Assembly: GCA_965652295.1 (NCBI GenBank)
Contig: CBFGTS010000008.1
Coordinates: 151,332 to 215,331, forward strand
Length of the DNA stretch: 64,000 nucleotides
Reading direction: 5' to 3'
DNA from: an uncultured Haloferula sp.
Lineage (GTDB): Bacteria; Verrucomicrobiota; Verrucomicrobiia; Verrucomicrobiales; Akkermansiaceae
Below the pieces are notes generated by a model. It did no database searches and was not told the origin of the DNA. It saw only the letters and a program-made list of their open reading frames with translations. A program made the position numbers and the translations under genes. This document shows, piece after piece, positions 53,050 through 64,000 of the stretch (positions are counted from its first letter, which is position 1; every line of letters begins with the position of its first letter).

Positions 53050-54335
53050 GGTTCAATCCACACCCCCTTGTGAGGGGCGACCCGGATCCGCGAACGGATC
53101 GAAGTCCTGGGTCGAGTTTCAATCCTCGCCCCTCGTGTGAGGGGCACCCCCGCTGTCGAAGATGCTCAGACCCGTTGCCATGTTTCAATCCGCGCCCCTC
53201 GCGTGAGGGGCGACTCTTCGTGCCAGTTGATGACGTTGACCGCCGGGTAGCTTCAATCCACGCCCCCTTGCGAGGGGCGACCCAAGTCGTGGAGCCCCAT
53301 GGGGAAGCGGTAGAGGTTTCAATCCACGCCCCCTTGCGAGGGGCGACTGCGGAAATCCCGCGTCCCCACCGCGTAGAGCGGGTTTCAATCCGCGCCCCTC
53401 GTGTGAGGGGCGACTGGTGTTCGGTTCGGCACGCAGCCGGGATTCGAGGTTTCAATCCACGCCCCCTTGTGAGGGGCGACCGCAGCCAAGTGGGCCGCCA
53501 AGCAGGACGCGAAAGTTTCAATCCACGCCCCCTTGTGAGGGGCGACCGAGTGCCCGCCGGCTGGGGCTGGTGTGGGACATGTTTCAATCCACGCCCCCTT
53601 GTGAGGGGCGACCGAGAGGACGCTGACTGCCATCGCGGACCATCCTGTTTCAATCCACGCCCCCTTGTGAGGGGCGACCAGATCCAGCCGCCACGCCTCG
53701 CCCGCCTTGAAGTTTCAATCCACGCCCCCTTGTGAGGGGCGACTGGTCTTGCGTTTCGGTTTGGTGGCCATGGTAGTGTTTCAATCCACGCCCCCTTGTG
53801 AGGGGCGACTACCGGAGATTTCTCTGCGGTTCTGCCCGCGCTGTTTCAATCCAGGCCCCCTTGTGAGGGGCGACGTTGCAGGGATGGCGGTGCGATCCAG
53901 CGTCTTGTTTCAATCCACGCCCCCTTGTGAGGGGCGACCGCATGCGCAGAGCTTCCTGCACTGCCGGGGCGTCGTTTCAATCCACGCCCCCTTGTGAGGG
54001 GCGACCCTAATCCTATCAGGCAACAATTGAATCAGCGAACGGTTTCAATCCACGCCCCCTTGTGAGGGGCGACTTAGAAACTTCCGGGGGAGTAACAACC
54101 GAGTCTCGGTTTCAATCCACGCCCCCTTGTGAGGGGCGACGAGGCCCGCGCCAGCCGTTGGCCGACTGGAACTGTTTCAATCCACGCCCCCTTGTGAGGG
54201 GCGACATAATAACGAAATACTTGCCGAATGTGATGAAGTTTCAATCCACGCCCCCTTGTGAGGGGCGACTGAGTGAGGAGCGTGCGATGCAGCTGGTGAG
54301 GGAGTTTCAATCCACGCCCCCTTGTGAGGGGCGAC
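53050..54335 (-). CRISPR. Type I-C CRISPR array, 20 repeats / 19 spacers (32-36 nt)
   Basis: Consensus on the minus strand GTCGCCCCTCACAAGGGGGCGTGGATTGAAAC (32 nt); variant repeats are concentrated at the low-coordinate (trailer) end. Confidence 0.98.
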
Positions 54336-54519
54336 GGCGGAACTCTGAACCCGCTTGCCATCAATGACAAGCAGTCGTGGTTCCGCGAAGGTCGCGATCC
54401 GGCGGGATCAGCCGCCTGCGACTTCCTGTTTGATCATGTCAAAGATCTCAAAACCAACGACTTGAGAAGATCGCGAACCGACCGGGGTTTTCGTGATCGA
54501 TTCGGGTTCGCGGAAGTCG
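54336..54519 (-). promoter_or_regulatory. CRISPR leader
   Basis: Non-coding stretch between cas2 and the first consensus repeat, with GCGAAC(C)/TTCGCG motifs resembling those of I-C leaders. Confidence 0.75.
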
Positions 54520-54810
54520 TTAGAGAATCAGCGGGCCATCGACGTCGTAGCCGTCCCTGGCTCCATGGTGCTCGACTTTGTGATGCCAGTTCGAGCCAAG
54601 ATGATAGAAACGCAGGGAATCGGTTTCCGGGTCGATGAGATCAAGCAGTCGCCCCTTCAAGGCGGCGAGCTGACCGGGATCGACCTTGCACTCGAAAACG
54701 GAGTTCTGCACCCGCTGACCGTAGTCGAGGCAGATCTTCGCCACCCGCCGGAGCCTCGTCCTGCCCTTTGGGGTGGTCGTGGAGACATCGTAGGTGACAA
54801 GGACGTACAT
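54520..54810 (-). CDS. cas2: CRISPR-associated Cas2
   Basis: 'VLVTYDV', '[11 protein letters not shown]', 'DSLRFYHLG'. Confidence 0.97.
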
Positions 54811-54843
54811 GGGAAAGTTTGAAGCGCTGAAAGCGACGAGAGA

Positions 54844-55884
54844 TCAGCGGCTGAGGAATGCCGGATAGGCATCGAGGTCGCCGCGGAGGTGGCGGGCGAG
54901 GAGACGGGCTTGCAGGTGGGGAAGGAGACCGAGGGTGGTTTTTTCGTCGAGGAAGGGGTGAAGGATCTCGTCCTGTTTCCGCTCTTGCCAAGCTTGGAGC
55001 ACGAGCTTTCGAGACCCTTCCTTGAGCAGCACCGCTCCATTTTCCTTCGTTTCGAAATCACCGCTCTGAAGCTGTTTCCGGTTGAAGAGGGACAGTGCGA
55101 GCCGGTCCGCGAAATAGGCGCGGAATTCTTCCATGAGGTCGAGTGCGAGGGACGGACGGCCGGGGCGGTCGCGGTGGAGAAATCCGCATTGGGGATCGAG
55201 CCCGCAGCTCTCCAGCGCACTGCGGCAGTCGTGGGTCAGCAGGCTGTAGAGAAAGGAAAGCAGGGCGTTGACGGGATCGAGCGGCGGTCGGCGGCTGCGC
55301 CCGCTCATGCGGATGGATGGATCGTGGTTGGTGAAAAGATGGGGGAAGGCGGCGAAGTAGAAGGAGGCGCAGTCGCCTTCGATCCCGCGTAGGGAGTCGA
55401 GGCTCGTGGCACGGGGAACCATCCGGAGGCGATTGGCGAGTTTGTCGGCGGCGGCAATGAGGATGGCGGCGCCTTCGGGGTTCTTGGTGCCGTGATCGCG
55501 GGCGGCGCGTTGGAGGACGCTGCGGCTGTTGGCGATCTTGGCGGAAATGACGTTCGCTGCGATCGCCACGGATGCCGGCTCGTGGTCGGCGCGGCGGTAC
55601 TGTTCACGCCGTAGCAGGATGTTTCCCGAGGTGAAGCCGTTGGTGCAGGCGAGAAATTTCCCGTGGGGATTGTGCAGGCTGAGGGAGACTCCGGCGTCGG
55701 CACATGCGGCCATGAGGGAGGCGGAGAGGGTGGTATCCCAGGCGAGGGTGACGATGCCGTCGAGATTGTGAAACGGTACACGCAGCCGGGTTTCGCCCTC
55801 GTGGCGGATCTCGACTGCTGCGCCGTCCTTGCGGAGATAGGCTCCTTCAAGAGTGACGAAGAGCGTGTTGAGGTGGCGCTTCAT
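54844..55884 (-). CDS. cas1: Cas1 (I-C)
   Basis: 'MKRHLNTLFVT', 'RGIEG', 'RRPPLDPVNALLSF', 'GFLH', 'SLALDLMEEFR'. Confidence 0.97.
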   Translation of the reverse strand: MKRHLNTLFVTLEGAYLRKDGAAVEIRHEGETRLRVPFHNLDGIVTLAWDTTLSASLMAACADAGVSLSLHNPHGKFLACTNGFTSGNILLRREQYRRADHEPASVAIAANVISAKIANSRSVLQRAARDHGTKNPEGAAILIAAADKLANRLRMVPRATSLDSLRGIEGDCASFYFAAFPHLFTNHDPSIRMSGRSRRPPLDPVNALLSFLYSLLTHDCRSALESCGLDPQCGFLHRDRPGRPSLALDLMEEFRAYFADRLALSLFNRKQLQSGDFETKENGAVLLKEGSRKLVLQAWQERKQDEILHPFLDEKTTLGLLPHLQARLLARHLRGDLDAYPAFLSR

Positions 55885-55905
55885 GGGCGACGATGGGGGT
55901 TGGAA

Positions 55906-56541
55906 TTACGAAGACGGGAGCTGGGAGTTGATTCGACTCGAGAACCATGCGGCGGCTCCGCGTTTGAAGCGCAGGGACTTGGGTTTGCAGAGGTCGAGCA
56001 GCGAGCAGGCGTCGCAGCGTTTGGCGTCGTATTCGGCGATGGGCGTCAGTCGGGTCTCCATCATTTCATGCAGAGAAGCGGCGAGGCCGTTGGTGAGGGA
56101 GCGGAGCGTCTGATCGAGAACGACGTCCTTGCGGCGCCGGGTTTTGCCATAGAAGAGGAGCCCGAGGGGGATCTCGATGCCGAGCATTTCCTCAAGCGCC
56201 ATGGCCTGGGCGCAGACCTGCACTTCGTCGGCGCGATGGGCCTTGGGTTTGCCGCGTTTGTATTCGATCGGTAGTACGGCGCCGTCGGCGTGGAACTCGA
56301 CCACGTCGCACTGGCCGGAGAGGCCGAGCTTTCGAGAGGCGACCGGCAGCCCCCGGGTGATGCGGACCCCGGGTCGCGATTCGTCCGGGCCGTCGTGAGC
56401 GCGGGCGTGCATCTGGTTGCCCTCCACGGTGAACTTGTTCTCCGCCCAGACCTGCTCCAAATGGATCAGCGCGCACTGCCTCGGGCAGTAGAGGAAATGC
56501 TGAAGCGCGGAAAGGGGAAGCAGGTCGGCCTCGGCGATCAT
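55906..56541 (-). CDS. cas4: Cas4
   Basis: 'YCPRQCAL', 'DVVEF...IEYKRG', 'QVCAQA', 'CDACSLLDLC'. Confidence 0.96.
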   Translation of the reverse strand: MIAEADLLPLSALQHFLYCPRQCALIHLEQVWAENKFTVEGNQMHARAHDGPDESRPGVRITRGLPVASRKLGLSGQCDVVEFHADGAVLPIEYKRGKPKAHRADEVQVCAQAMALEEMLGIEIPLGLLFYGKTRRRKDVVLDQTLRSLTNGLAASLHEMMETRLTPIAEYDAKRCDACSLLDLCKPKSLRFKRGAAAWFSSRINSQLPSS

Positions 56542-56925: not shown

Positions 56926-57777
56926 TCAGAGGCGTTCGATAATTTCGACGCCGTCGGGGATGACGGAGCGGTCGATCTCCACGATGTAGTCTGAAATGGA
57001 ACGAGCGACTTCGACCTCAGGCTTGCGCGTGATTTTGACGGCGTCGAAGAGCTTGTGGCTCGGTGCGGCCCCAAGGGCGCTGCTGTGCTTGAAGACGATC
57101 AAGCCACGGGGATTCATGCTTCCGGCGGGACGGGCGGCGGACTGATCGAACTGGAATGCGTTTTCGAGCGCGGTGAAGAGGAGTTCGAGGTCCTCGTCGT
57201 CAAAGCCGGTTTGCGTTGCCAGGAAGGGGTTCACGAAGCCCTGGGCCTTGTAGAGGCCGTAGGGGATGGTGAACTTGCGGCCCATGGTGCGCTCTTTCTC
57301 GATGTCCTTCTCATTGGTCACCGAGGTGCGGGTGATGGCGTGCTCGCTAGAGACGATGGGATCGATGGAGCGAGCGAAGGAGATCTGGACAGGGCCTCGG
57401 ACCTGACCGCAGTTCACCTCGGTCGACATGACGGCTCCGAAGGTTCGGATATCGTAGTAGTTTTGGCACATCCAGGCGGTGGCTCTGTCCTTGATCTCCG
57501 GTTTGACCTTCTTGTCGGGCTTCTCACCGATAGCCTCGTAGGCTTTCTTGTGCTGGAGATTATGAACGGCTCCTTCGGTGAAGTAGATGCGCTTGCCGTC
57601 TTTCCCCTCGCCAGTCATGGCGACGAAATTGCGAATCTTGCGTTTGAGGCAGACGTCGGTGACGAGACCTTGGCCGGACTCGACGTCGATGCGGGGAAGG
57701 TTGCCGGCATCGGGATCGCCATTGGGGTTGGCGTCCTGGGCGTCGAAGAGGAAGAGGAAGTCGTAACGATGGTTCAT
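56926..57777 (-). CDS. cas7: Cas7c/Csd2
   Basis: '[15 protein letters not shown]', '[10 protein letters not shown]', 'DIRTFGAV', 'TMGRK'. Confidence 0.97.
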
Positions 57778-57812
57778 GTTCGGTGGTTCAGGTGGAGGTT
57801 TTAGAAGAAGGT

Positions 57813-59621
57813 TCAAACAGTGGTGGTCTCGGGTTCAAGCTGTTCGGTGGTGCTGTTGGACGTGAACAGGGATCTGCGCTGGTGGTAGTAGCCTAAGATG
57901 AACCGGCCTTGCTCAATGAGCGTGTGGGTCTTCTTGGTTCCGGAGAGATCCCATTTGATGTCTCCGACCATCTGCTCGAACTGGATGCGACGGCCAGGGT
58001 TCAGATGGCGTTGGTGGTGAACCGACAATGTTTCCAAACGAGGGAACACCGCTGCCGGGGTCGCGCAGGCGCTTGAGAAATACTTTTCCTTTATGGTGTG
58101 TTCGAGTTTGCGTTGGGTCTGGGCGTAGTGGCCTTCCTCTTGGATTTTTTCCAGAACGGCGAAGAGTCGACCGTGGCGGTAGGCGGAATCTGGGTTGGTC
58201 GGGTCTAGCATGACGGTGATGGTTTGGTTGTGATTTCTGACAAGCACGGCTTTGATGGCGGCGGCGCGGAGATAATTGATGGTGTGATCGGCATGGATCC
58301 GGCGGATGATGGCGGCGAATAGACCTTCGGGGTAGAGGCCGCCTTCGATGATCGCTCTGGCATAGGCTCCGCCAAGTAGTGGTGGGATCTTATCGCGATC
58401 AGGTTTGCCGCCTTTCGGCGGTGGAGTCTGATCAAGGATTCGCCAGATGGCGGGAAACTCGGGATCGGGAAAGCCTTTTCCTGTCTGATCGTTGAACTGC
58501 CGCACGATCTCAAGACACCGATGGTGATCGTGGAGCTTGCCGATCAGATCCGAGATGGTGGAGCGGTGAAAGAAGCGGATGGAGAATCGACCTGGGTTAG
58601 GCTGTTCAAGTCCGAGAATGAAAAAGGGTGTCTCAGGGTCACCGAATTCCTGGTATTTACCACCGCTTTTGATCGCCGCCAGAAGTCTGGAGATTTGGTC
58701 CAAGCGGTTCTGGTCCTGCGATTCCGTTCGCGACGACGATGGTTCCTCAAAGACTTCCGCAAAGACGCTCTCAAAAATGGTTTTCTCCTTGGTCCAGTGG
58801 ACGACCGTTGTGTCCGCGATTCGAGTTCGATGTCGATTTCGCATCGGGCCGTCGGTCAACGCGTTGAGGGCGGTTGCATAACGGAAGGCAGCCGATTCGC
58901 TGACAGGGCAGTTCTCGGTTTTGCTCAAACCGTAGGACTCGTAAGAAGAGTTCTCCTGGATGCCGACAAGGGCGACAGAGCTTTTGAATCCCTTAATGTC
59001 GGGATGAATCCTGCAAATCGAGCTGACTGCACCGGTTACCAAGCACTGGGACGCTTCCGAAGGGTCTTTGCTGTTCTGGTGCGAGATCCACCAGCTTCTC
59101 ACTGGCGGGTGTTCATGGATGCCTACTTTCTCTTCCTGAAGGACCCAGATGCCGAAATTGGTGCCAATTTCTGATAGCTTCGCCAATTCATTGGCGACCT
59201 CGGGTGATTGTTGTTCGGTTTGCCATTTCTCAAGGAATCGGCAAACCGAAGAGTAGCCGAGGTCCATGATCTCCGCCTCTTTCGCCAGATGAGTGGTTTT
59301 GAACGCTTCGAAACATTCCTTTGCCGCGTTTTGCTTTTCAGGGACTGACGTCCAGCCGAGCATGTATTCCGGCTTGTCGCAGAGAAACTGTGATTTCACT
59401 CCGCTCGTTCGCTTCTCGTGCGCAGGGACCTCTTGCCGATCCGGAATGGCTCTACCTCGGTCGCTTTTGATTCGCGCGTCCTCGATTTGGACGAGGGAGC
59501 CGTCGGGCCGGATGCGAATGCGGAAGCTGATCTTTTGCGGGGAGAAGCCGGGCGGGGCGATCTCGTAGGTGGGATCGTCGGCGAGGCGGGCGTAGAGGTC
59601 GTTAAGGGCTTGGAGGATCAT
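57813..59621 (-). CDS. cas8c: Cas8c/Csd1 (C-terminus probably also encodes Cas11 from the internal ATG at 58211)
   Basis: '[10 protein letters not shown]', 'CLVTG', '[11 protein letters not shown]', '[11 protein letters not shown]'. Confidence 0.95.
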
Positions 59622-60343
59622 GCGCGGACGGGGAAAGGGAGTTCGGGGACCGAGATGATGCCGTCGGTCATGGAGGCGCGGAAGAAGTGTGGGGTGGTGG
59701 AGCGGACGTTCTTGGTGGCCCGGTCCTGATCGAACTCGATGTCATGGAGCATGAAGCCGAGGTCCTTTTCGCCTCCGAACGACTCGTGGGGTGAGGGGAG
59801 GTCGGACTCATTCTCGATGAGCTCGAAACGGACAGGGAACTCTCGGCACCCGAAGTAGGGCTGGTGGAAGGCCTGACCCTTGCGTGCGCGGCGTTTGAAC
59901 ATGTCGAGGTGCTTGCCGATGGCCTCGCTCTCCGGTGACGGCGAGTCGTCCTTCTCCGGGCGGGAATCGAGGATATGGACGTGGGCCCTGATGAGGTAGG
60001 CAACGTCCTTGAGCAGGAGGGAGGCGCGTTGCTGGCGGTTTTCGGCGACATCCATGGTGGGGCGAATGTCAGGATCGCGCATGGCCGCGTTGACACCCGT
60101 GCCGCCTTTGACCGGGATCTTGGAGGAAACCTCATTGCGGCGGATGTTGGTGAAGCGGATGGGGTTGAGGACGTGGATTTCGTCGATGATCCAGCGGATC
60201 TGGGGCTTCCAGTAGATGGCTTCGAGAATGCCGCGGGCGGCGGAAGGGGTAATCACGTCGTAGGAGACACGCTCGACCTTCATTTCGGGACGGCTGAAGA
60301 GGGCATAGTCGCCGGAGACTTTGAGGTGGATGCCGTAGTTCAT
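59618..60343 (-). CDS. cas5c: Cas5c (Cas5d), crRNA-processing subunit
   Basis: '[34 protein letters not shown]', 'PYFGCREF', 'DLGFMLHD'. Confidence 0.97.
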
Positions 60344-60357
60344 GGGCTGGATGGGGC

Positions 60358-60392
60358 TTGATTTGATGGCAATCTGATGTCAGTTTGCAGTC
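60358..60392 (+). promoter_or_regulatory. Putative leaderless antitoxin promoter with operator-like repeats
   Basis: TTGATT-N17-CAGTTT ends 6 nt before the GTG start and overlaps TGATGGCA/TGATGTCA repeats. Confidence 0.35.
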
Positions 60393-60647
60393 GTGGCGAC
60401 GTTGACGATACGAAATGTGCCGGATGAATTGCACCGATGGCTCAGGGAGCAGGCGAAGCGGAATCGCCGCAGCCTGAACCAAGAGGTGATTGCGGAACTT
60501 GCGATGAGAGTAGGATTGGCGGATGAAGAGGCGAAAAAAGAGAGGGTGCGGAAAATGACAGCCCTCGCAGAAGATCTGAGGAGAGAGCTTGGTGCCCCCC
60601 TGTCTGCTGAACAGATCCGAGCAGGGATTGAGCAGGGTCGAAGGTGA
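60393..60647 (+). CDS. FitA/Arc-like ribbon-helix-helix antitoxin
   Basis: 'MATLTIRNVPDELHRWLREQAKRNRRSLNQEVIAEL'. Confidence 0.9.
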   Translation: MATLTIRNVPDELHRWLREQAKRNRRSLNQEVIAELAMRVGLADEEAKKERVRKMTALAEDLRRELGAPLSAEQIRAGIEQGRR

Positions 60648-60655
60648 TTTTTGCC

Positions 60656-60697
60656 TTCACTGAATCTATGCTAAAAAGGATGGGGTTGACTTTGCAA
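60656..60697. promoter_or_regulatory. TTC PAM and partial protospacer for the crRNA-like unit, overlapping predicted promoter elements
   Basis: TTC-ACTGAATCTATGCTAAAAAGG; minus-strand TTGCAA-N18-TAGCAT; plus-strand TATGCT. Confidence 0.75.
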
Positions 60698-60719
60698 TCC
60701 GAAAAGGCAGGATGCGGAC

Positions 60720-61136
60720 GTGATTGTCGTGGATTGCACTGTCATCGCGGATTTTTTCATCGCGGAAGCTGGAGACCAACGGGCTGCTCAACGGCTATTG
60801 GAAAAAGATGCGGACTGGATTTCGCCGATGTTGTGGCGCTATGAATTCGGGAACGTTCTGCGCACTCAGGTCCGTGGAGGACGGCTGTCCGCGGAGTTGA
60901 TGTCGCGCTACCTGCGAGCGGGGGAAGGTTTGGTGGTCGATAGTGTGGTGGAATTGGACGTCGTGGCCGTTGGAGAAATGGCCAACGAACGGGGGCTGTC
61001 GTTTTACGATGCGAGCTACGTGTGGCTGGCGCGGGAGCGGGGGCTCCCCTTTTATTCCCGGGATGGGAAACTTTGGAGGAAATGCCCCGACCTTGTGACC
61101 CACATGGATTCGCTTGGTCGAGCGTCTCCCGGCTAG
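60720..61136 (+). CDS. vapC: VapC-family PIN-domain toxin
   Basis: 'MIVVDCTV', 'YEFGNVL', 'LSFYDASYVWLA', 'SRD': acidic PIN residues are intact. Confidence 0.92.
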   Translation: MIVVDCTVIADFFIAEAGDQRAAQRLLEKDADWISPMLWRYEFGNVLRTQVRGGRLSAELMSRYLRAGEGLVVDSVVELDVVAVGEMANERGLSFYDASYVWLARERGLPFYSRDGKLWRKCPDLVTHMDSLGRASPG

Positions 61137-61137
61137 A

Positions 61138-61242
61138 GTCGGCACCCTGCATGCAACGGGTTCCGCGGATTGAAACACTGAGTCTATCGCTAACAAGGTC
61201 AGTGGCGAGGCGGGGCGTCCTTCGGGATGCCCCGCCGGTTTT
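61138..61242 (+). ncRNA. Solitary repeat-spacer crRNA-like RNA (CreA/CreR-like)
   Basis: Pseudo-repeat GTCGGCACCCTGCATGCAACGGGTTCCGCGGATTGAAAC (61138-61176), 32-nt spacer (61177-61208), 12-bp hairpin with a TTCG loop (61209-61236), then GGTTTT. Confidence 0.85.
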
Positions 61243-61265
61243 CCATGTGGCGGGAGAAGGGTTCA

Positions 61266-63650
61266 TCAACTGCATACCAAGGTGGTGGTTCCGGTATCCT
61301 GTTCCTCGAAGGTGATGCCTAAGTCAGGTGAATAGTTGATCTCGGTGGAAATCAGGGCGTGGAATTCTCCGTCCCGGAGGACCTCGAAGGAGCGGAGGTT
61401 TTCGTCCCGATGTTTCGGAGAAATCTGGACGATGTAGCGCTGGAGACCGCGGAGCAGGTTGCGGTTGAGGGGAATGCTTGGAATACGAAGTTGCTCGATC
61501 AGCTTGCGCGCTTTGTCGTCGTAGGGGATGAGGACGGGAACTTGCCAGTCGTCGATGAGGCGGAACTTTTCAGCAACGGTGGCGAATTGAAAATGGAAGG
61601 GAAAAGCGCGGTCGTTTTCCCTACGGAAGCTCTCGGTCGAGACGATGCGTTTGGAGTCCCAGCGACTTTTCTGCTGGTAGTAGTAGAGGTCGAAGTAGTG
61701 GTGGATGGCCTGCTGCTCGAGGAGGTCGGGATGGAGCTCGATGAGGCCGCTCGCGACCTGGGCGGTTTCCCGGAAATAGGCTTCACCTTTCTGGTCTTCG
61801 GGGATGAAGACATGGGTTTGGCCGGGCTGGGAGAGTTTGCCGTTGCGGTTGCAGCGCCCGGCAGCTTGGGCGATCGAGTCGAGTCCGGCGAGGGAGCGAT
61901 AGACGACGGGGAAATCGACATCGACTCCGGCTTCGATGAGCTGGGTGGAGATGAGGCGAACGGGGAGCTTTTTTTGCAGACGCTCGCGGACCTCGGCGAG
62001 GATGCGGGAGCGGTGTTCCGGACACATGAGGGCGGAGAGGTGGTAATTTCCCTCGCCCTGGCCGAGGAGACGGAAGATTTCGCGAGCATGCTTGCGGCGG
62101 TTGACGATGCAGAGAGCCTGCGGCTGATCGAGCAATCGCTGGACGAGGTTGGCGTCTGGGAGTTTGCCGAGGAAGTGAACGTCAACCCGCTTGAGGGCGG
62201 CGAAGAGTGCGCCCGGGTCACGGATGATTTCCCGACAGTTTTTCAAGCCAATGGGAAATTCATCAGGGTGATGATGGATCGCGGGCTGGGTGGCGGTGCA
62301 GAGGACGGCGGTGGTGTGGTAGTGGTCGGTGAGCTCACGGAGGACGCGAAGGCAGGGTGAGAGATAATCGACGGGGAGCGTCTGGGCTTCGTCGAGGATG
62401 ACGACGGAGTTGGCGATGTGGTGAAGCTTCCGGCTGCGTGAGGTTTTCGAGGCGAAGAGGGATTCGTAGAACTGGACGGCGGTGGTGATGATGATTGGGG
62501 CGTCCCAGTTCTCGGCGGCGAGGCGTGATCGTTCGGTTTCGTTCTCCGGGGACAGGGCGGAATGGTGCTCGATGAGCGGGGTGAAGGTGTCCGTCTGGAG
62601 AGAGGCGACGATTTCTCGGATGACTTCGGCGTTTTGCTCGATGATCGAGGTGAAGGGGACGACGAATATGACGCGCGTCTTGCCATTTGCGATGGCGTGG
62701 AGGAGTGCGAACAGAAGAGACGACAGGGTCTTGCCTCCGCCGGTAGGGACGGTGAGAGTGAAGAGGCCGGGCTTTTCCCCGGAGGCGGCGCGGCAGTCAT
62801 CGACGACCGCTTTGCGCTGGATGTTGACGATGTCGTGACGAGCCGGGGTGCCGAACGAATCGATGTGGGTGCTGACGAGATCGGCAATTTGTTGGAGTGT
62901 GTTGTTGGGGATCGAGTTTCGGGTCGAGGCCTGGTGGGGATCCATGAAGGCCTCGGTGGCGAGGAAGTCGGCATCAACGAGGCGGGAGAAGATGAGACGG
63001 CTGAAGAAGCCGAGGGAGAAGTCGTTGGGTGTTCTCAGAAATGGCGGGAGAGGCGGGACGGGCACATCGAGGACATCGGGAGGAGCGCAGGACCAGTCGG
63101 GGAGGTCGGGTTTGGTGAGTCGATGGCGCTGGCAGGTATGGTTTGATTCGCCATCAAGGAGTCCGGAGTGGTGACCGGCGATAGGGTATGCAAGCAGGTG
63201 TCCGAGAAGGTGTTTGGAGGCGGCATGTTGCGCTCCGGCGGTGGAGTGATCCAGCTTGCCGGTGACTTCGGCTTGGTGCGGATCGGCCTTAGATGTGAGG
63301 TAGGCTTGCCACTTGGGAGCGAACTTTCCGAGATCATGCCAAAGCCCGGCGAGATAGCCCCATTGGCGAGCGGCGTCGCGGTCCGGTCCGGTCGGAAACA
63401 TGTCCGCGGCGAATTTAGCGGTCCACCAAGCGACTTTGTTGAGGTGGCCATGGTAGGGATCGAGGGCTTCACAGGCCTCGCAATGTCCTCCGCGGAGGGC
63501 GGGGCAATCTTCGCTGAAAAGTGGTTCCCATGGCTGCCCCGGCGGGGCGGTGTGGGCGTATGGGGGAGAGGTTTCCACAATGGGTGTGAGTTCTGGCTGT
63601 TGAAGGCCTCCTGGCTTTTGGGGCAAGTCCGGCGGCGGGTCAGGGTTCAA
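61266..63650 (-). CDS. cas3: Cas3 HD nuclease-helicase
   Basis: 'YAH', 'WHDLGK', 'HSTAG', 'GHHSGL', 'VPTGGGKT', 'DEAQ', 'QAAGRCNR'. Start codon uncertain. Confidence 0.96.
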   Translation of the reverse strand: MNPDPPPDLPQKPGGLQQPELTPIVETSPPYAHTAPPGQPWEPLFSEDCPALRGGHCEACEALDPYHGHLNKVAWWTAKFAADMFPTGPDRDAARQWGYLAGLWHDLGKFAPKWQAYLTSKADPHQAEVTGKLDHSTAGAQHAASKHLLGHLLAYPIAGHHSGLLDGESNHTCQRHRLTKPDLPDWSCAPPDVLDVPVPPLPPFLRTPNDFSLGFFSRLIFSRLVDADFLATEAFMDPHQASTRNSIPNNTLQQIADLVSTHIDSFGTPARHDIVNIQRKAVVDDCRAASGEKPGLFTLTVPTGGGKTLSSLLFALLHAIANGKTRVIFVVPFTSIIEQNAEVIREIVASLQTDTFTPLIEHHSALSPENETERSRLAAENWDAPIIITTAVQFYESLFASKTSRSRKLHHIANSVVILDEAQTLPVDYLSPCLRVLRELTDHYHTTAVLCTATQPAIHHHPDEFPIGLKNCREIIRDPGALFAALKRVDVHFLGKLPDANLVQRLLDQPQALCIVNRRKHAREIFRLLGQGEGNYHLSALMCPEHRSRILAEVRERLQKKLPVRLISTQLIEAGVDVDFPVVYRSLAGLDSIAQAAGRCNRNGKLSQPGQTHVFIPEDQKGEAYFRETAQVASGLIELHPDLLEQQAIHHYFDLYYYQQKSRWDSKRIVSTESFRRENDRAFPFHFQFATVAEKFRLIDDWQVPVLIPYDDKARKLIEQLRIPSIPLNRNLLRGLQRYIVQISPKHRDENLRSFEVLRDGEFHALISTEINYSPDLGITFEEQDTGTTTLVCS

Positions 63651-63904
63651 GTGGTGCTGAGGACGGGAGAGGGAATTTTGAGCGAGTCGTGAAGAAGCCT
63701 TGTGGATGAGCGGCTGGAAGCCGCTGGGACGGCCTGCGGCAGGATGCCGCAGCCACCGTAGGAAATCGGGAATGCTGATGCGGGAGGATTCATCGAGCGA
63801 GCATTGGAGTTAGGGATGTGAATCGACGCGTGACCAGATGAAACCTAGGGTAAATACGAAGATGTGTGTCATGCTGTTCGGAAGAGCGAGATAAGTTTGC
63901 TAGT

Positions 63905-64000
<96 letters not shown>

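What the first reader, a model, noticed from the sequence alone, without database searches (positions are those of the whole stretch)
61138..61242. Hidden solitary CRISPR repeat-spacer unit after vapC that targets the toxin-antitoxin intergenic DNA (CreA/CreR-like guide in a type I-C locus)
Seen: 1 nt after the vapC stop is a 39-nt pseudo-repeat. It starts GTCG like the array repeat, can fold (CGGCACCC/GGGTTCCG, one mismatch), and ends in CGGATTGAAAC, the same 11 nt as the 33-nt array repeat variant. It is on the opposite strand from the array and about 7 kb away. A 32-nt spacer follows (ACTGAGTCTATCGCTAACAAGGTCAGTGGCGA, within the array's 32-36 nt range), then a strong UUCG hairpin with a short T run. 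The spacer aligns to 60659-60679 (ACTGAATCTAT-GCTAAAAAGG), which directly follows TTC. Positions 1-5, 7-11, 13-17 and 19-22 match; the departures are position 6 (mismatch), 12 (unpaired base) and 18 (mismatch). Established: TTC is the type I-C PAM; Cas5c cuts at the hairpin base leaving an 11-nt 5' handle; every sixth spacer base is flipped out in Cascade; partial pairing gives binding and repression without Cas3 cleavage, as in CreA/CreR RNAs. Inference: Cascade is guided to repress transcription here, so loss or anti-CRISPR inhibition of Cascade would release it. A guide placed at the 3' end of a conventional vapBC module would form a self-contained feedback loop.
Basis: partly seen in the sequence, partly recalled or inferred. 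Interest (0 to 1): 0.96.

Follow-up and report, generated by a model that had tools for sequence, protein, structure and literature searches.

The report
CRISPR guide that gates a VapC toxin
A lone CRISPR repeat and guide sitting just after a toxin gene inside a type I-C CRISPR locus matches the DNA in front of that same toxin gene, and the match co-evolves in twelve related loci, so the CRISPR machinery most likely keeps the toxin switched off.

Summary
A vapB-vapC cassette lies on the + strand between cas5c and cas3 of a type I-C locus. It ends in a 39-nt repeat-like hairpin with the 11-nt handle CGGATTGAAAC, then a 32-nt spacer and a terminator hairpin. Spacer positions 1-5 and 7-11 match one TTC-flanked site in the 72-nt vapB-vapC gap. 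That site is the only such match in the 4.37-Mb genome.

Comparative evidence settles that the pair is functional. Twelve Verrucomicrobiota loci share the architecture, with 11 distinct seeds, each matching its own gap. Positions 1-5 and 7-11 pair in 12 of 12 loci and positions 13-14 in 11 of 12. Positions 6 and 12 match at chance (3 and 4 of 12), and pairing is lost after about position 15. The PAM is TTC in 12 of 12. Guide-less homologues have abutting vapB/vapC (-4 to 13 nt) instead of a 61-116-nt gap.

Best reading: a crRNA-like RNA holds I-C Cascade in a partial R-loop on the vapC promoter, so that loss or inhibition of Cascade releases the PIN toxin. The kind is known (CreTA, CreR, and type I-C "CRISIS" solitary repeat units). 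New here are the type II VapBC cargo, control of the toxin gene alone, and the inverted cassette. No RNA or binding data exist.

The parts
53050..54352 (-). Type I-C CRISPR array, about 20 repeats. The repeat on the minus strand is GTCGCCCCTCACAAGGGGGCGTGGATTGAAAC; older degenerate repeats lie at the low-coordinate end.
54520..56541 (-). Adaptation genes: cas2 (54520-54810), cas1 (54844-55884), cas4 (55906-56541).
   Evidence: Pfam
56926..60343 (-). Cascade genes: cas7 (56926-57816), cas8c/csd1 (57813-59621), cas5c (59618-60343).
   Evidence: Pfam
60358..60386 (+). Predicted vapB promoter: TTGATT (60358-60363), 17 nt, CAGTTT (60381-60386), 6 nt, then GTG. The layout fits a leaderless transcript and is visible in the 10 loci printed.
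   Evidence: inference, the sigma-70 scan did not call it
60393..60647 (+). vapB, an 84-aa FitA-like ribbon-helix-helix antitoxin.
   Evidence: Pfam PF22513, E 2e-14
60656..60658 (+). TTC protospacer-adjacent motif (type I-C PAM).
   Evidence: TTC in 12 of 12 loci
60659..60690 (+). Target (protospacer). 60659-60669 pairs with spacer positions 1-5 and 7-11. 60670-60679 pairs with positions 13-17 and 19-22 only if spacer base 12 is bulged.
60686..60713 (+). Predicted vapC promoter: TTGACT (60686-60691), 16 nt, CAGGAT (60708-60713), 6 nt, then GTG. The -35 lies inside the PAM-distal end of the protospacer.
   Evidence: inference by analogy with the vapB promoter and with the CRISIS geometry
60720..61136 (+). 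vapC, a 138-aa PIN-domain toxin. The acidic residues D5, E42, D97 and D115 are invariant in the 9 aligned sequences.
   Evidence: Pfam PF01850
61138..61176 (+). Repeat-like sequence: a hairpin (61138-61166) and the 11-nt handle CGGATTGAAAC (61166-61176). The expected Cas5c cut lies just before 61166.
   Evidence: cut site by analogy
61177..61208 (+). 32-nt spacer-like guide.
61209..61242 (+). 12-bp GC-rich UUCG hairpin plus a short T run. It is an intrinsic terminator for the + strand and the likely 3' end of the guide RNA.
61266..63650 (-). cas3 (HD nuclease and helicase), convergent with the cassette.
   Evidence: Pfam

Best explanation
This is a CRISPR-supervised toxin cassette inserted, in inverted orientation, between cas3 and cas5c of a type I-C locus.

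Proposed steps:
1. Transcription through vapC runs on into a solitary repeat unit.
2. Cas5c cuts at the base of the repeat-like hairpin. This releases a crRNA-like RNA with an 11-nt handle, a 32-nt guide and a 3' hairpin.
3. Cascade loaded with this RNA recognises the TTC PAM in the vapB-vapC gap and pairs over positions 1-5, 7-11 and, in relatives, 13-14.
4. That pairing is enough for a stable partial R-loop but not for a full R-loop, so Cas3 is not recruited and the chromosome is not cut.
5. The bound complex sits on or beside the -35 of a vapC-specific promoter and represses vapC, and probably the guide made from the same transcript.
6. vapB has its own promoter and is not gated.
7. If Cascade is lost or blocked by an anti-CRISPR, vapC is derepressed, the PIN RNase outruns VapB, and growth stops. 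This would be addiction to the cas genes or an abortive response to anti-CRISPRs.

Shown here: the anatomy, the uniqueness of the match, and the co-evolution with its positional signature. Taken from published type I-C work: processing, repression and absence of cleavage. Inferred: which promoter is hit, the toxicity, and the feedback loop.
For: (1) The locus is type I-C and the cassette is RHH antitoxin plus PIN toxin.

(2) The repeat-like hairpin with its handle, the 32-nt guide and the terminator are present.

(3) PAM plus seed is unique in the window and in the genome.

(4) Twelve loci share the architecture cas5c(-) | vapB, gap, vapC, repeat, guide, hairpin (+) | cas3(-). These are the window, L005, L007, L008, L009, L013, L017, L028, L031, L103, L105 and L106.

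(5) Per-position pairing in those 12 loci: positions 1-5, 12 of 12; position 6, 3 of 12; positions 7-11, 12 of 12; position 12, 4 of 12; positions 13-14, 11 of 12; later positions 0-5 of 12. There are 11 distinct seeds and the PAM is TTC in 12 of 12. Shuffled-seed controls gave 1 hit in 2400. In a 9 x 9 cross test each guide scores 10 of 10 on its own gap. Against other gaps it scores 2-9, except L007 and L008, which share one seed and score 10 on each other.

(6) The hairpin stems differ between loci but always close just before the conserved handle.

(7) The vapB-vapC gap is 61-116 nt in the 11 guide-bearing loci measured and -4 to 13 nt in the 8 guide-less homologues measured.

(8) Promoter-like elements with the same layout as the conserved vapB promoter lie between the target and the vapC start codon.

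(9) The closest type I-C relatives (Cas5c 80-87% identical) have cas3 abutting cas5c, so the cassette is an insertion.

(10) In two decayed copies (L006, L027) the guide has a 4-nt insertion after the handle and the target is lost.

(11) Literature, sections read: type I-C solitary repeat units with one repeat-like sequence, an 11-nt handle and a 3' hairpin give 48-50-nt RNAs. They repress cargo promoters 4.8- to 60-fold, have a TTC PAM and mismatches at positions 6 and 12, and the transcription start lies 37-46 bp after the target (10.1101/2024.12.27.630466). Passages read: type I-C Cascade has a stable 12-bp partial R-loop state and recruits Cas3 only at the full R-loop (10.1101/2023.08.05.552134).
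Against: There are no expression data. No listed sequencing run that holds this DNA is RNA, so neither the processed RNA nor any transcription start is shown.

The sigma-70 consensus scan found no promoter in 60200-61500. The promoter assignments rest on hand-read weak hexamers, and at least two + strand readings and one minus-strand reading fit the same AT-rich, partly palindromic gap.

In the window the ungapped pairing is only 10 bp plus the PAM. Positions 13-14 pair in the 11 other loci but in the window only across a 1-nt bulge.

VapB is still made and could neutralise derepressed VapC, so toxicity on loss of Cascade is not assured.

On the VapC tree the guide-bearing sequences fall in four lineages mixed with guide-less ones. 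The backbone is unresolved, so the history (one gain with losses, or several gains) is unclear.

The module is rare. Besides the window's genome, only 1 of 400 sampled genomes of the phylum carries it.
Confidence: 0.8

Rival explanations
1. CreR-type autoregulation. The main job of the bound Cascade is to limit transcription of cas5c-cas8c-cas7. It would act either as a roadblock to read-through from cas3 across the inverted cassette, or by occluding a leftward promoter in the gap. vapC control would be secondary or absent.
For: In close relatives cas3 abuts cas5c as one operon, so after the insertion cas5c must be transcribed through or from within the cassette. The hairpin after the guide has a T run only on the + strand, so cas3 transcripts could read through. 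The guide pairs with the strand that is non-template for leftward transcription, the orientation that a type I-C CRISPRi paper says earlier reports prefer for targets inside transcribed regions (PMC10865793, passages). In Haloarcula one CreA site represses both the toxin promoter and the cas8 promoter (10.1101/2023.03.10.532045, passages). An earlier scan note reports a CreR-type element between cas3 and cas5 of another type I-C locus.
Against: In all 12 loci the target lies in the vapB-vapC gap, 27-61 nt before the vapC start and about 300 nt or more from cas5c. The gap exists only where the guide exists, which ties the site to vapC. Minus-strand promoter readings have poor spacing or poor -10 hexamers. 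Type I-C relatives without the cassette carry no solitary repeat there: 23 of the 26 evaluable loci have neither a vapBC cassette nor a solitary repeat unit in that slot.
Confidence: 0.12
2. Roadblock inside a single vapB-vapC operon. There is no internal vapC promoter. Cascade simply stops RNA polymerase coming from the vapB promoter and so sets a high VapB:VapC ratio.
For: The vapB promoter is strongly conserved, no terminator is seen in the gap, and the sigma-70 scan calls no promoter in the gap.
Against: The guide pairs with the template strand for rightward transcription. The type I-C CRISPRi paper says earlier reports suggest a strand bias, and it preferred the non-template strand for targets inside open reading frames (passages). 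Promoter-like elements with conserved spacing to the vapC start are present in the 8 class A loci. In the characterised type I-C units the target lies next to a -35, with the transcription start 37-46 bp downstream, which matches this geometry. With a pure roadblock the guide, which lies downstream of the block, would shut off its own supply completely.
Confidence: 0.06
3. Non-functional relic or a decoy. The unit is a decayed fragment of a former array or a duplication of the gap sequence, or it is a repeat decoy that merely soaks up Cas proteins.
For: The repeat-like sequence is degenerate, and Rfam's CRISPR repeat models did not pick it up at E <= 1. Phage solitary repeats that act as decoys are known (PMC10651486, abstract in the search listing).
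Against: Twelve loci carry 11 different seeds that track their own targets. Positions 6 and 12 evolve neutrally. The PAM is conserved in 12 of 12 loci, and the hairpin and handle are conserved. A relic or a decoy needs no matching PAM-flanked target.
Confidence: 0.02

Closest known systems
CRISIS: type I-C CRISPR-supervised immune systems and their solitary repeat units (Shu et al., bioRxiv 10.1101/2024.12.27.630466; sections 4, 5, 6 and 9 read)
   Same: Non-cas cargo is inserted between cas3 and cas5c of a type I-C operon. The cargo is directly followed by a solitary repeat unit with one repeat-like hairpin, an 11-nt handle, a guide and a 3' hairpin. The PAM is TTC, and pairing of about 14-16 nt is PAM-proximal with mismatches at positions 6 and 12. 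The target lies next to the -35, with the start about 40 bp downstream. The proposed pay-off is control of a harmful cargo and a response to anti-CRISPRs.
   Different: The cargo here is a classical type II VapBC pair. The text read lists Nezha, Gabija, sole-Sir2, Wukong, Erlang, Tianpeng, Shaseng, Longwang, Guanyin, Tudigong and SMRD; a word search of that text finds no VapC or PIN, and antitoxin only in naming CreTA. Its supplementary data could not be seen. Here the cassette is inverted relative to the cas genes, so the unit abuts the 3' end of cas3 instead of preceding cas5c. The target sits inside the cargo, between antitoxin and toxin, not in front of the whole cargo. The host phylum is Verrucomicrobiota, whereas the text read names mainly Neisseria strains as hosts.
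CreTA (CRISPR-repressed toxin-antitoxin RNA pairs, type I-B and I-F) and its protein-toxin form CrePA (as described in 10.1101/2023.03.10.532045, PMC12737573 and the abstract of 10.1101/2024.01.05.574328)
   Same: A degenerate mini-CRISPR RNA acts as antitoxin by guiding the effector to repress a toxin promoter through seed-only pairing. Loss or inhibition of the effector releases the toxin.
   Different: The CreT toxins are small RNAs, and the CrePA toxin is described as a phage-derived protein that blocks cell division. Here the toxin is a PIN RNase that also has its own protein antitoxin, so two antitoxins of different kinds act on one toxin. The subtype is I-C and there is a single repeat.
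Mini-arrays predicted to regulate toxin-antitoxin cargo in CRISPR-cas loci (Shmakov et al. 2023, bioRxiv 10.1101/2023.03.03.530964; passages read)
   Same: A computational prediction that repeat-like units next to cas3 target promoter regions of toxin-antitoxin cargo inside cas loci, with the idea of an addictive or anti-anti-CRISPR circuit.
   Different: Those cases are mainly in subtype I-D, with enrichment in I-B, I-E and I-F1. The term I-C does not occur in the preprint text. They are two-repeat mini-arrays upstream of the cargo. The NAR version was not available, and the two held supplements contain none of the search terms.
CreR (Cas-regulating RNAs; 10.1101/2023.03.10.532045, passages read)
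   Same: A degenerate repeat-spacer unit in a cas intergenic region with seed pairing. creA-like elements are noted for I-C in a supplementary figure.
   Different: CreR targets the effector cas promoter and has no toxin. Here the conserved target is tied to vapC.
Canonical VapBC type II toxin-antitoxin modules
   Same: A ribbon-helix-helix antitoxin gene followed by a PIN toxin gene with intact acidic residues.
   Different: In guide-less homologues the two genes overlap or abut (-4 to 13 nt). Here they are separated by 72 nt (61-116 nt across loci) carrying a Cascade target and promoter-like elements.

Membership tests
crRNA-like regulatory RNA / solitary repeat unit of type I-C (CreA/CreR/crlRNA class) | Repeat-like sequence with a hairpin followed by the conserved 11-nt 5' handle of the local CRISPR repeat | tested here: met
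   61138-61176 folds with the stem closing before CGGATTGAAAC, the same 11 nt as two array repeats. GCGGATTGAAAC is present in all 12 loci.
crRNA-like regulatory RNA / solitary repeat unit of type I-C (CreA/CreR/crlRNA class) | Guide with PAM-proximal, partial complementarity to a chromosomal site flanked by the subtype's PAM | tested here: met
   TTC plus positions 1-5 and 7-11, unique in the genome. Pairing ends by about position 15 in 12 loci.
crRNA-like regulatory RNA / solitary repeat unit of type I-C (CreA/CreR/crlRNA class) | Guide and target conserved or co-varying in related loci | tested here: met
   11 distinct seeds in 12 loci, each matching its own gap. Positions 6 and 12 are unconstrained.
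crRNA-like regulatory RNA / solitary repeat unit of type I-C (CreA/CreR/crlRNA class) | Encoded in a locus with the cognate effector genes | tested here: met
   cas5c, cas8c, cas7 and cas3 flank the cassette (relatives).
crRNA-like regulatory RNA / solitary repeat unit of type I-C (CreA/CreR/crlRNA class) | A processed RNA is made and loaded into Cascade, and the target promoter is repressed without cleavage | not testable with these tools
   No RNA run holds this DNA. Supported only by analogy.
CRISIS (type I-C CRISPR-supervised immune systems) | Non-cas cargo between cas3 and cas5c, directly followed by a solitary repeat unit | tested here: met
   vapBC lies between cas5c and cas3, and the repeat-like sequence starts 2 nt after the vapC stop. 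The closest relatives without the cassette have cas3 abutting cas5c.
CRISIS (type I-C CRISPR-supervised immune systems) | The unit precedes cas5c, as stated in the text read; co-orientation of cargo and cas genes is not stated there and is my reading | tested here: not met
   The cassette is on the opposite strand in all 12 loci, and the unit abuts the 3' end of cas3.
CRISIS (type I-C CRISPR-supervised immune systems) | The target lies right in front of the cargo genes, next to their promoter | tested here: inconclusive
   The target precedes vapC but follows vapB, so only part of the cargo is downstream of it. The promoter is predicted, not mapped.
CRISIS (type I-C CRISPR-supervised immune systems) | The cargo confers anti-phage immunity | not testable with these tools
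CreTA (type VIII RNA toxin-antitoxin) | The toxin is a small RNA (CreT) repressed by CreA | tested here: not met
   The gene downstream of the target is a 138-aa PIN protein.
VapBC type II toxin-antitoxin | Antitoxin with a DNA-binding fold followed by a PIN toxin with conserved acidic residues | tested here: met
   PF22513 and PF01850. D5, E42, D97 and D115 are invariant in 9 aligned sequences.
VapBC type II toxin-antitoxin | The two genes form one tightly coupled operon (overlapping or abutting) | tested here: not met
   The gap is 72 nt here and 61-116 nt in 11 guide-bearing loci, against -4 to 13 nt in 8 guide-less homologues.

The most novel reading that the evidence does not exclude
VapC is held by two antitoxins of different nature: the protein VapB and a Cascade-bound guide carried in the 3' untranslated end of the toxin's own mRNA. 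Every toxin transcript would then deliver the RNA that silences the next one. Cas5c cutting would couple toxin mRNA fate to guide supply, and the circuit would measure free, working Cascade. Because the cassette is inverted inside the cas operon, the same bound Cascade could also stop read-through from cas3 into cas5c-cas8c-cas7. One site would then set the level of both the toxin and the effector, and an anti-CRISPR would raise both.
Probability: 0.3. Interest if true: 0.75.

Novelty: new variant of a known kind. Interest (0 to 1): 0.6.

Why it matters
This locus links two widespread systems. It shows a natural case in which a CRISPR effector has taken over control of the toxin gene of an ordinary protein toxin-antitoxin pair. 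The twelve-locus covariation gives an unusually clean in-silico read-out of what type I-C Cascade needs for binding without cutting: the PAM, positions 1-5, 7-11 and 13-14, with positions 6 and 12 free. If the circuit works as proposed, it is a compact sensor of Cascade loss or anti-CRISPR attack. It also extends the CRISPR-supervised cargo idea to type II toxin-antitoxin modules, to an inverted gene order and to Verrucomicrobiota. The class of mechanism is already published, so the value lies in the new cargo and wiring, not in a new principle.

Tried and rejected
- DNA search of the 922-nt cassette in 60 relatives found only weak vapB-like matches elsewhere.
- A phylum sample of 401 genomes searched with a VapC profile gave 8 hits. 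Only one besides the window's genome carried the unit, and it is the same record as L013.
- The Rfam scan matched only array repeats, all below gathering score, and not the solitary unit.
- The sigma-70 scan of 60200-61500 found 0 promoter-like sites.
- No RNA holder is listed for this DNA.
- Laying contigs of four DNA runs showed no differing letters. The only loose end is one contig that diverges at 60344.
- The NAR version of Shmakov et al. is not held. Its preprint supplements (2 files) hold none of I-C, Verrucomicrobi, Luteolibacter, VapC or PIN.
- Two type I-C structure papers did not contain the words sought on sixth-position flipping. That point rests on the CRISIS text and on general knowledge of type I Cascade.
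- I read the gap for a minus-strand promoter for cas5c and for a + strand promoter with its -10 in the AT-rich stretch. Neither could be excluded. Both were ranked below the reading that mirrors the vapB promoter.
- I looked for an independent promoter for the guide inside the 3' end of vapC. A possible one appears in the L005 group and none convincing in the window.
- The VapC tree did not resolve whether the guide arose once.
- Literature searches for VapC with CreA, Cascade and CRISPR, for CreTA with type II toxin-antitoxin, PIN and mini-array, and for CRISIS with crlRNA found no description of a Cascade-gated VapBC.
- The scan's own notes hold nothing near this place.
Full report
**What is there.**
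The right end of the window is a complete type I-C CRISPR-Cas locus on the minus strand. It holds the array (53050-54352), cas2, cas1, cas4, cas7, cas8c/csd1, cas5c (59618-60343) and cas3 (61266-63650) (Pfam; repeats).

Between cas5c and cas3, on the opposite strand, lies a cassette:
- vapB (60393-60647; FitA-like ribbon-helix-helix, E 2e-14);
- a 72-nt gap;
- vapC (60720-61136; PIN);
- one base after the stop codon, then a 39-nt repeat-like sequence (61138-61176);
- a 32-nt spacer (61177-61208);
- a 12-bp GC-rich UUCG hairpin followed by GGTTTTCC (61209-61242).

The repeat-like sequence starts GTCG and folds into a hairpin whose stem closes just before the last 10-11 nt, as the array repeat does. 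It ends in CGGATTGAAAC, the same 11 nt as two older array repeats.

**Is it more than chance?**
- GGATTGAAAC occurs once outside the array on both strands of the window.
- The genome has 24 copies: 18 in the array, this one, and 5 scattered. The scattered ones are about what a 10-mer gives by chance in 8.7 Mb of two strands.
- The spacer's first 11 nt (position 6 free), preceded by TTC, occur once in the window at 60656.
- They occur once in the 4.37-Mb genome, with no hit for the reversed control.
As a plain local alignment it is only modestly unusual (3 of 100 shuffles reach it). The weight lies in the register and the PAM.

**Relatives.**
- A scan of species-representative genomes with VapC gave 22 loci.
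- A metagenome scan gave 48 loci.
- A Cas5c search of 201 genomes of the order gave 30 type I-C loci.
- Twelve loci in all have the same layout, namely cas5c(-) | vapB, gap, vapC, repeat-like hairpin, guide, hairpin (+) | cas3(-). They are the window, L005, L007, L008, L009, L013, L017, L028, L031, L103, L105 and L106.
- L040 is a partial duplicate of L031, and L085 is the same record as L013.
- The titled genome records are Verrucomicrobiota MAGs, among them Luteolibacter, Akkermansiaceae, Rubritalea and Opitutales.
- VapC identity to the window falls to about 42% and Cas5c identity to about 54%.

**Covariation.**
In each of the 12 loci, the sequence after the handle matches a TTC-flanked site in that locus's own vapB-vapC gap. 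The seeds differ between loci: 11 distinct 10-nt seeds among 12.

| Spacer position | Loci where spacer and target match |
|---|---|
| 1-5 | 12 of 12 |
| 6 | 3 of 12 |
| 7-11 | 12 of 12 |
| 12 | 4 of 12 |
| 13 and 14 | 11 of 12 each |
| 15-24 | 0-5 of 12 |

- Shuffled seeds found a TTC-flanked perfect site in their own locus in 1 of 2400 trials.
- In a 9 x 9 cross test every guide scores 10 of 10 on its own gap. Against foreign gaps it scores 2-9, apart from L007 and L008, which share one seed.
- Positions 6 and 12 match at the rate expected for unconstrained bases. This is the signature of a Cascade guide, in which every sixth base does not pair. The CRISIS preprint states this for positions 6 and 12.
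- The stems of the repeat-like hairpins differ in sequence and length between loci but always close before the invariant GCGGATTGAAAC.
- A strong hairpin always begins 27-33 nt after the handle, even where no T run follows, as in L028 and L105.

**The window's one oddity.**
Ungapped, the window's pairing stops at position 11. It is the only locus where positions 13-14 do not pair. Whether Cascade tolerates a missing target base at a flipped position cannot be tested here. A published type I-C structure shows a stable partial R-loop of 12 bp, so the seed alone may suffice.

**What the target is.**
- The gap exists only where the guide exists. It is 61-116 nt in the 11 guide-bearing loci measured and -4 to 13 nt in the 8 guide-less homologues measured.
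- Upstream of vapB, the 10 loci printed show TTGATT-like, 17 nt, CAnnnT, 6 nt, then the start codon. This layout fits a leaderless transcript.
- The same layout recurs before vapC in 8 loci (class A, including the window). A TTGnnn hexamer lies at protospacer positions 23-33, followed by 16-17 nt, a -10-like hexamer, 5-7 nt and the start codon. The protospacer starts 57-61 nt before that start codon.
- In the 4 class B loci the distance is 27-33 nt, and the PAM lies in or next to the -35-like hexamer.
- In the window the predicted elements are TTGACT (60686-60691) and CAGGAT (60708-60713).
- This geometry matches the characterised type I-C units, where the -35 is adjacent to the target and the mapped start lies 37-46 bp downstream.
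- The consensus promoter scan called nothing in this region, so these assignments are inference. An alternative + strand reading puts the -10 in the AT-rich stretch at protospacer positions 14-20. A minus-strand reading also cannot be excluded.

**The cassette is an insertion.**
- In the four closest type I-C relatives (Cas5c 80-87% identical), cas3 ends 6-34 nt from cas5c.
- Of 26 evaluable loci, 3 carry the cassette and 23 do not.
- Two decayed copies (L006, L027) have a 4-nt insertion right after the handle. They have also lost the seed match and the AT-rich stretch of the gap. L006 sits beside only a fragment of the cognate cas3.
- VapC keeps its four acidic PIN residues in all 9 aligned guide-bearing sequences.

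**Mechanism proposed.**
1. Transcription through vapC continues into the unit.
2. Cas5c cuts before 61166.
3. The RNA is loaded into Cascade.
4. Cascade binds the TTC site, forms a partial R-loop, cannot recruit Cas3, and represses the vapC promoter.

vapB stays on from its own promoter. Loss or inhibition of Cascade would release VapC.

The supporting experiments are from other type I-C loci:
- processing to an 11-nt handle with the 3' end in a hairpin loop;
- 4.8- to 60-fold repression;
- Cas3 recruitment only at the full R-loop;
- type I-C Cascade without Cas3 as an efficient repressor at TTC sites over promoters.

Read-through from the vapB promoter or a promoter within the 3' end of vapC could also supply it.

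**Rivals.**
- *Cas-regulating role.* Control of cas5c-cas8c-cas7 through read-through from cas3 is plausible as an added effect. The hairpin terminates only + strand transcription. The guide pairs with the non-template strand for leftward transcription. One Haloarcula CreA site represses two promoters. As the main function it fits poorly with a target tied to vapC in all 12 loci.
- *Pure roadblock within a vapB-vapC operon.* Possible, but it would cut off the guide's own supply and ignores the promoter-like elements.
- *Relic or decoy.* Excluded by the covariation.

**Comparison with what is known.**
- The class is established: CreTA and CreR, predicted mini-arrays controlling toxin-antitoxin cargo, mainly in subtype I-D, and, closest, the type I-C CRISIS systems.
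- The CRISIS text read names ten cargo systems and a gene cluster. A word search of it finds no VapC or PIN, and antitoxin only in naming CreTA. Its supplementary data could not be seen.
- Three literature searches found no Cascade-gated VapBC.
It led me to the literature on solitary repeat units.
- The differences here are the type II VapBC cargo, the target placed between antitoxin and toxin so that only the toxin is gated, the inverted cassette, and the phylum.

**Verdict.**
The feature is real and almost certainly functional.

Noticed in passing
window 63902-64000: Two adjoining 7-nt tandem repeat runs, AGATTTC then GGAGAGC, run to the end of the window (families D6 and D7).
   Followed up: no
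L006:3631-4520 and L027:2100-2960: Decayed copies of the cassette. They have a 4-nt AAAC insertion right after the handle, and the gap has lost the seed match and the AT-rich stretch. vapB and vapC stay intact. L006 lies beside only a cas3 fragment and a different type I-C cas3/cas5.
   Followed up: partly
L104 (G518:C5), about 800 nt between cas5c and cas3: Another small gene pair fills the same cas3-cas5c slot, co-oriented with the cas genes and without a solitary repeat: an AbrB/SpoVT-like ORF followed by a PIN-like ORF. The family names come from my reading of the translations, not from a family search. L102 and L119 also have unexplained inserts there. The junction looks like a hotspot for cargo.
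   Followed up: partly
L014:6001-6700: A guide-less vapBC homologue with overlapping genes lies directly beside a type I-C-like CRISPR array (repeats GTTTCAATCCGCGC...), with no solitary unit.
   Followed up: no
window 60344 (edge of the cas5c start): One low-depth contig of run X3 matches cas5c up to 60344 and then continues in unrelated sequence. This may be a strain without the cassette or with another insert (table 7).
   Followed up: no
window 60358-60392 and the same place in 9 other loci: vapB has a conserved promoter-like layout ending 6 nt before its start codon and no Shine-Dalgarno-like sequence. This suggests leaderless transcripts in these Verrucomicrobiota cassettes.
   Followed up: partly
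window 53050-53415: The low-coordinate end of the array carries degenerate repeats and 33-nt variants with irregular spacing (200 and 133 nt steps), as expected for the old end of an array.
   Followed up: no
G000 contigs C9 (58786, 121157, 166046), C14 (85965), C15 (54327): Five further copies of GGATTGAAAC lie outside the CRISPR locus. That is about the chance expectation, and they were not examined for hairpins or targets.
   Followed up: no
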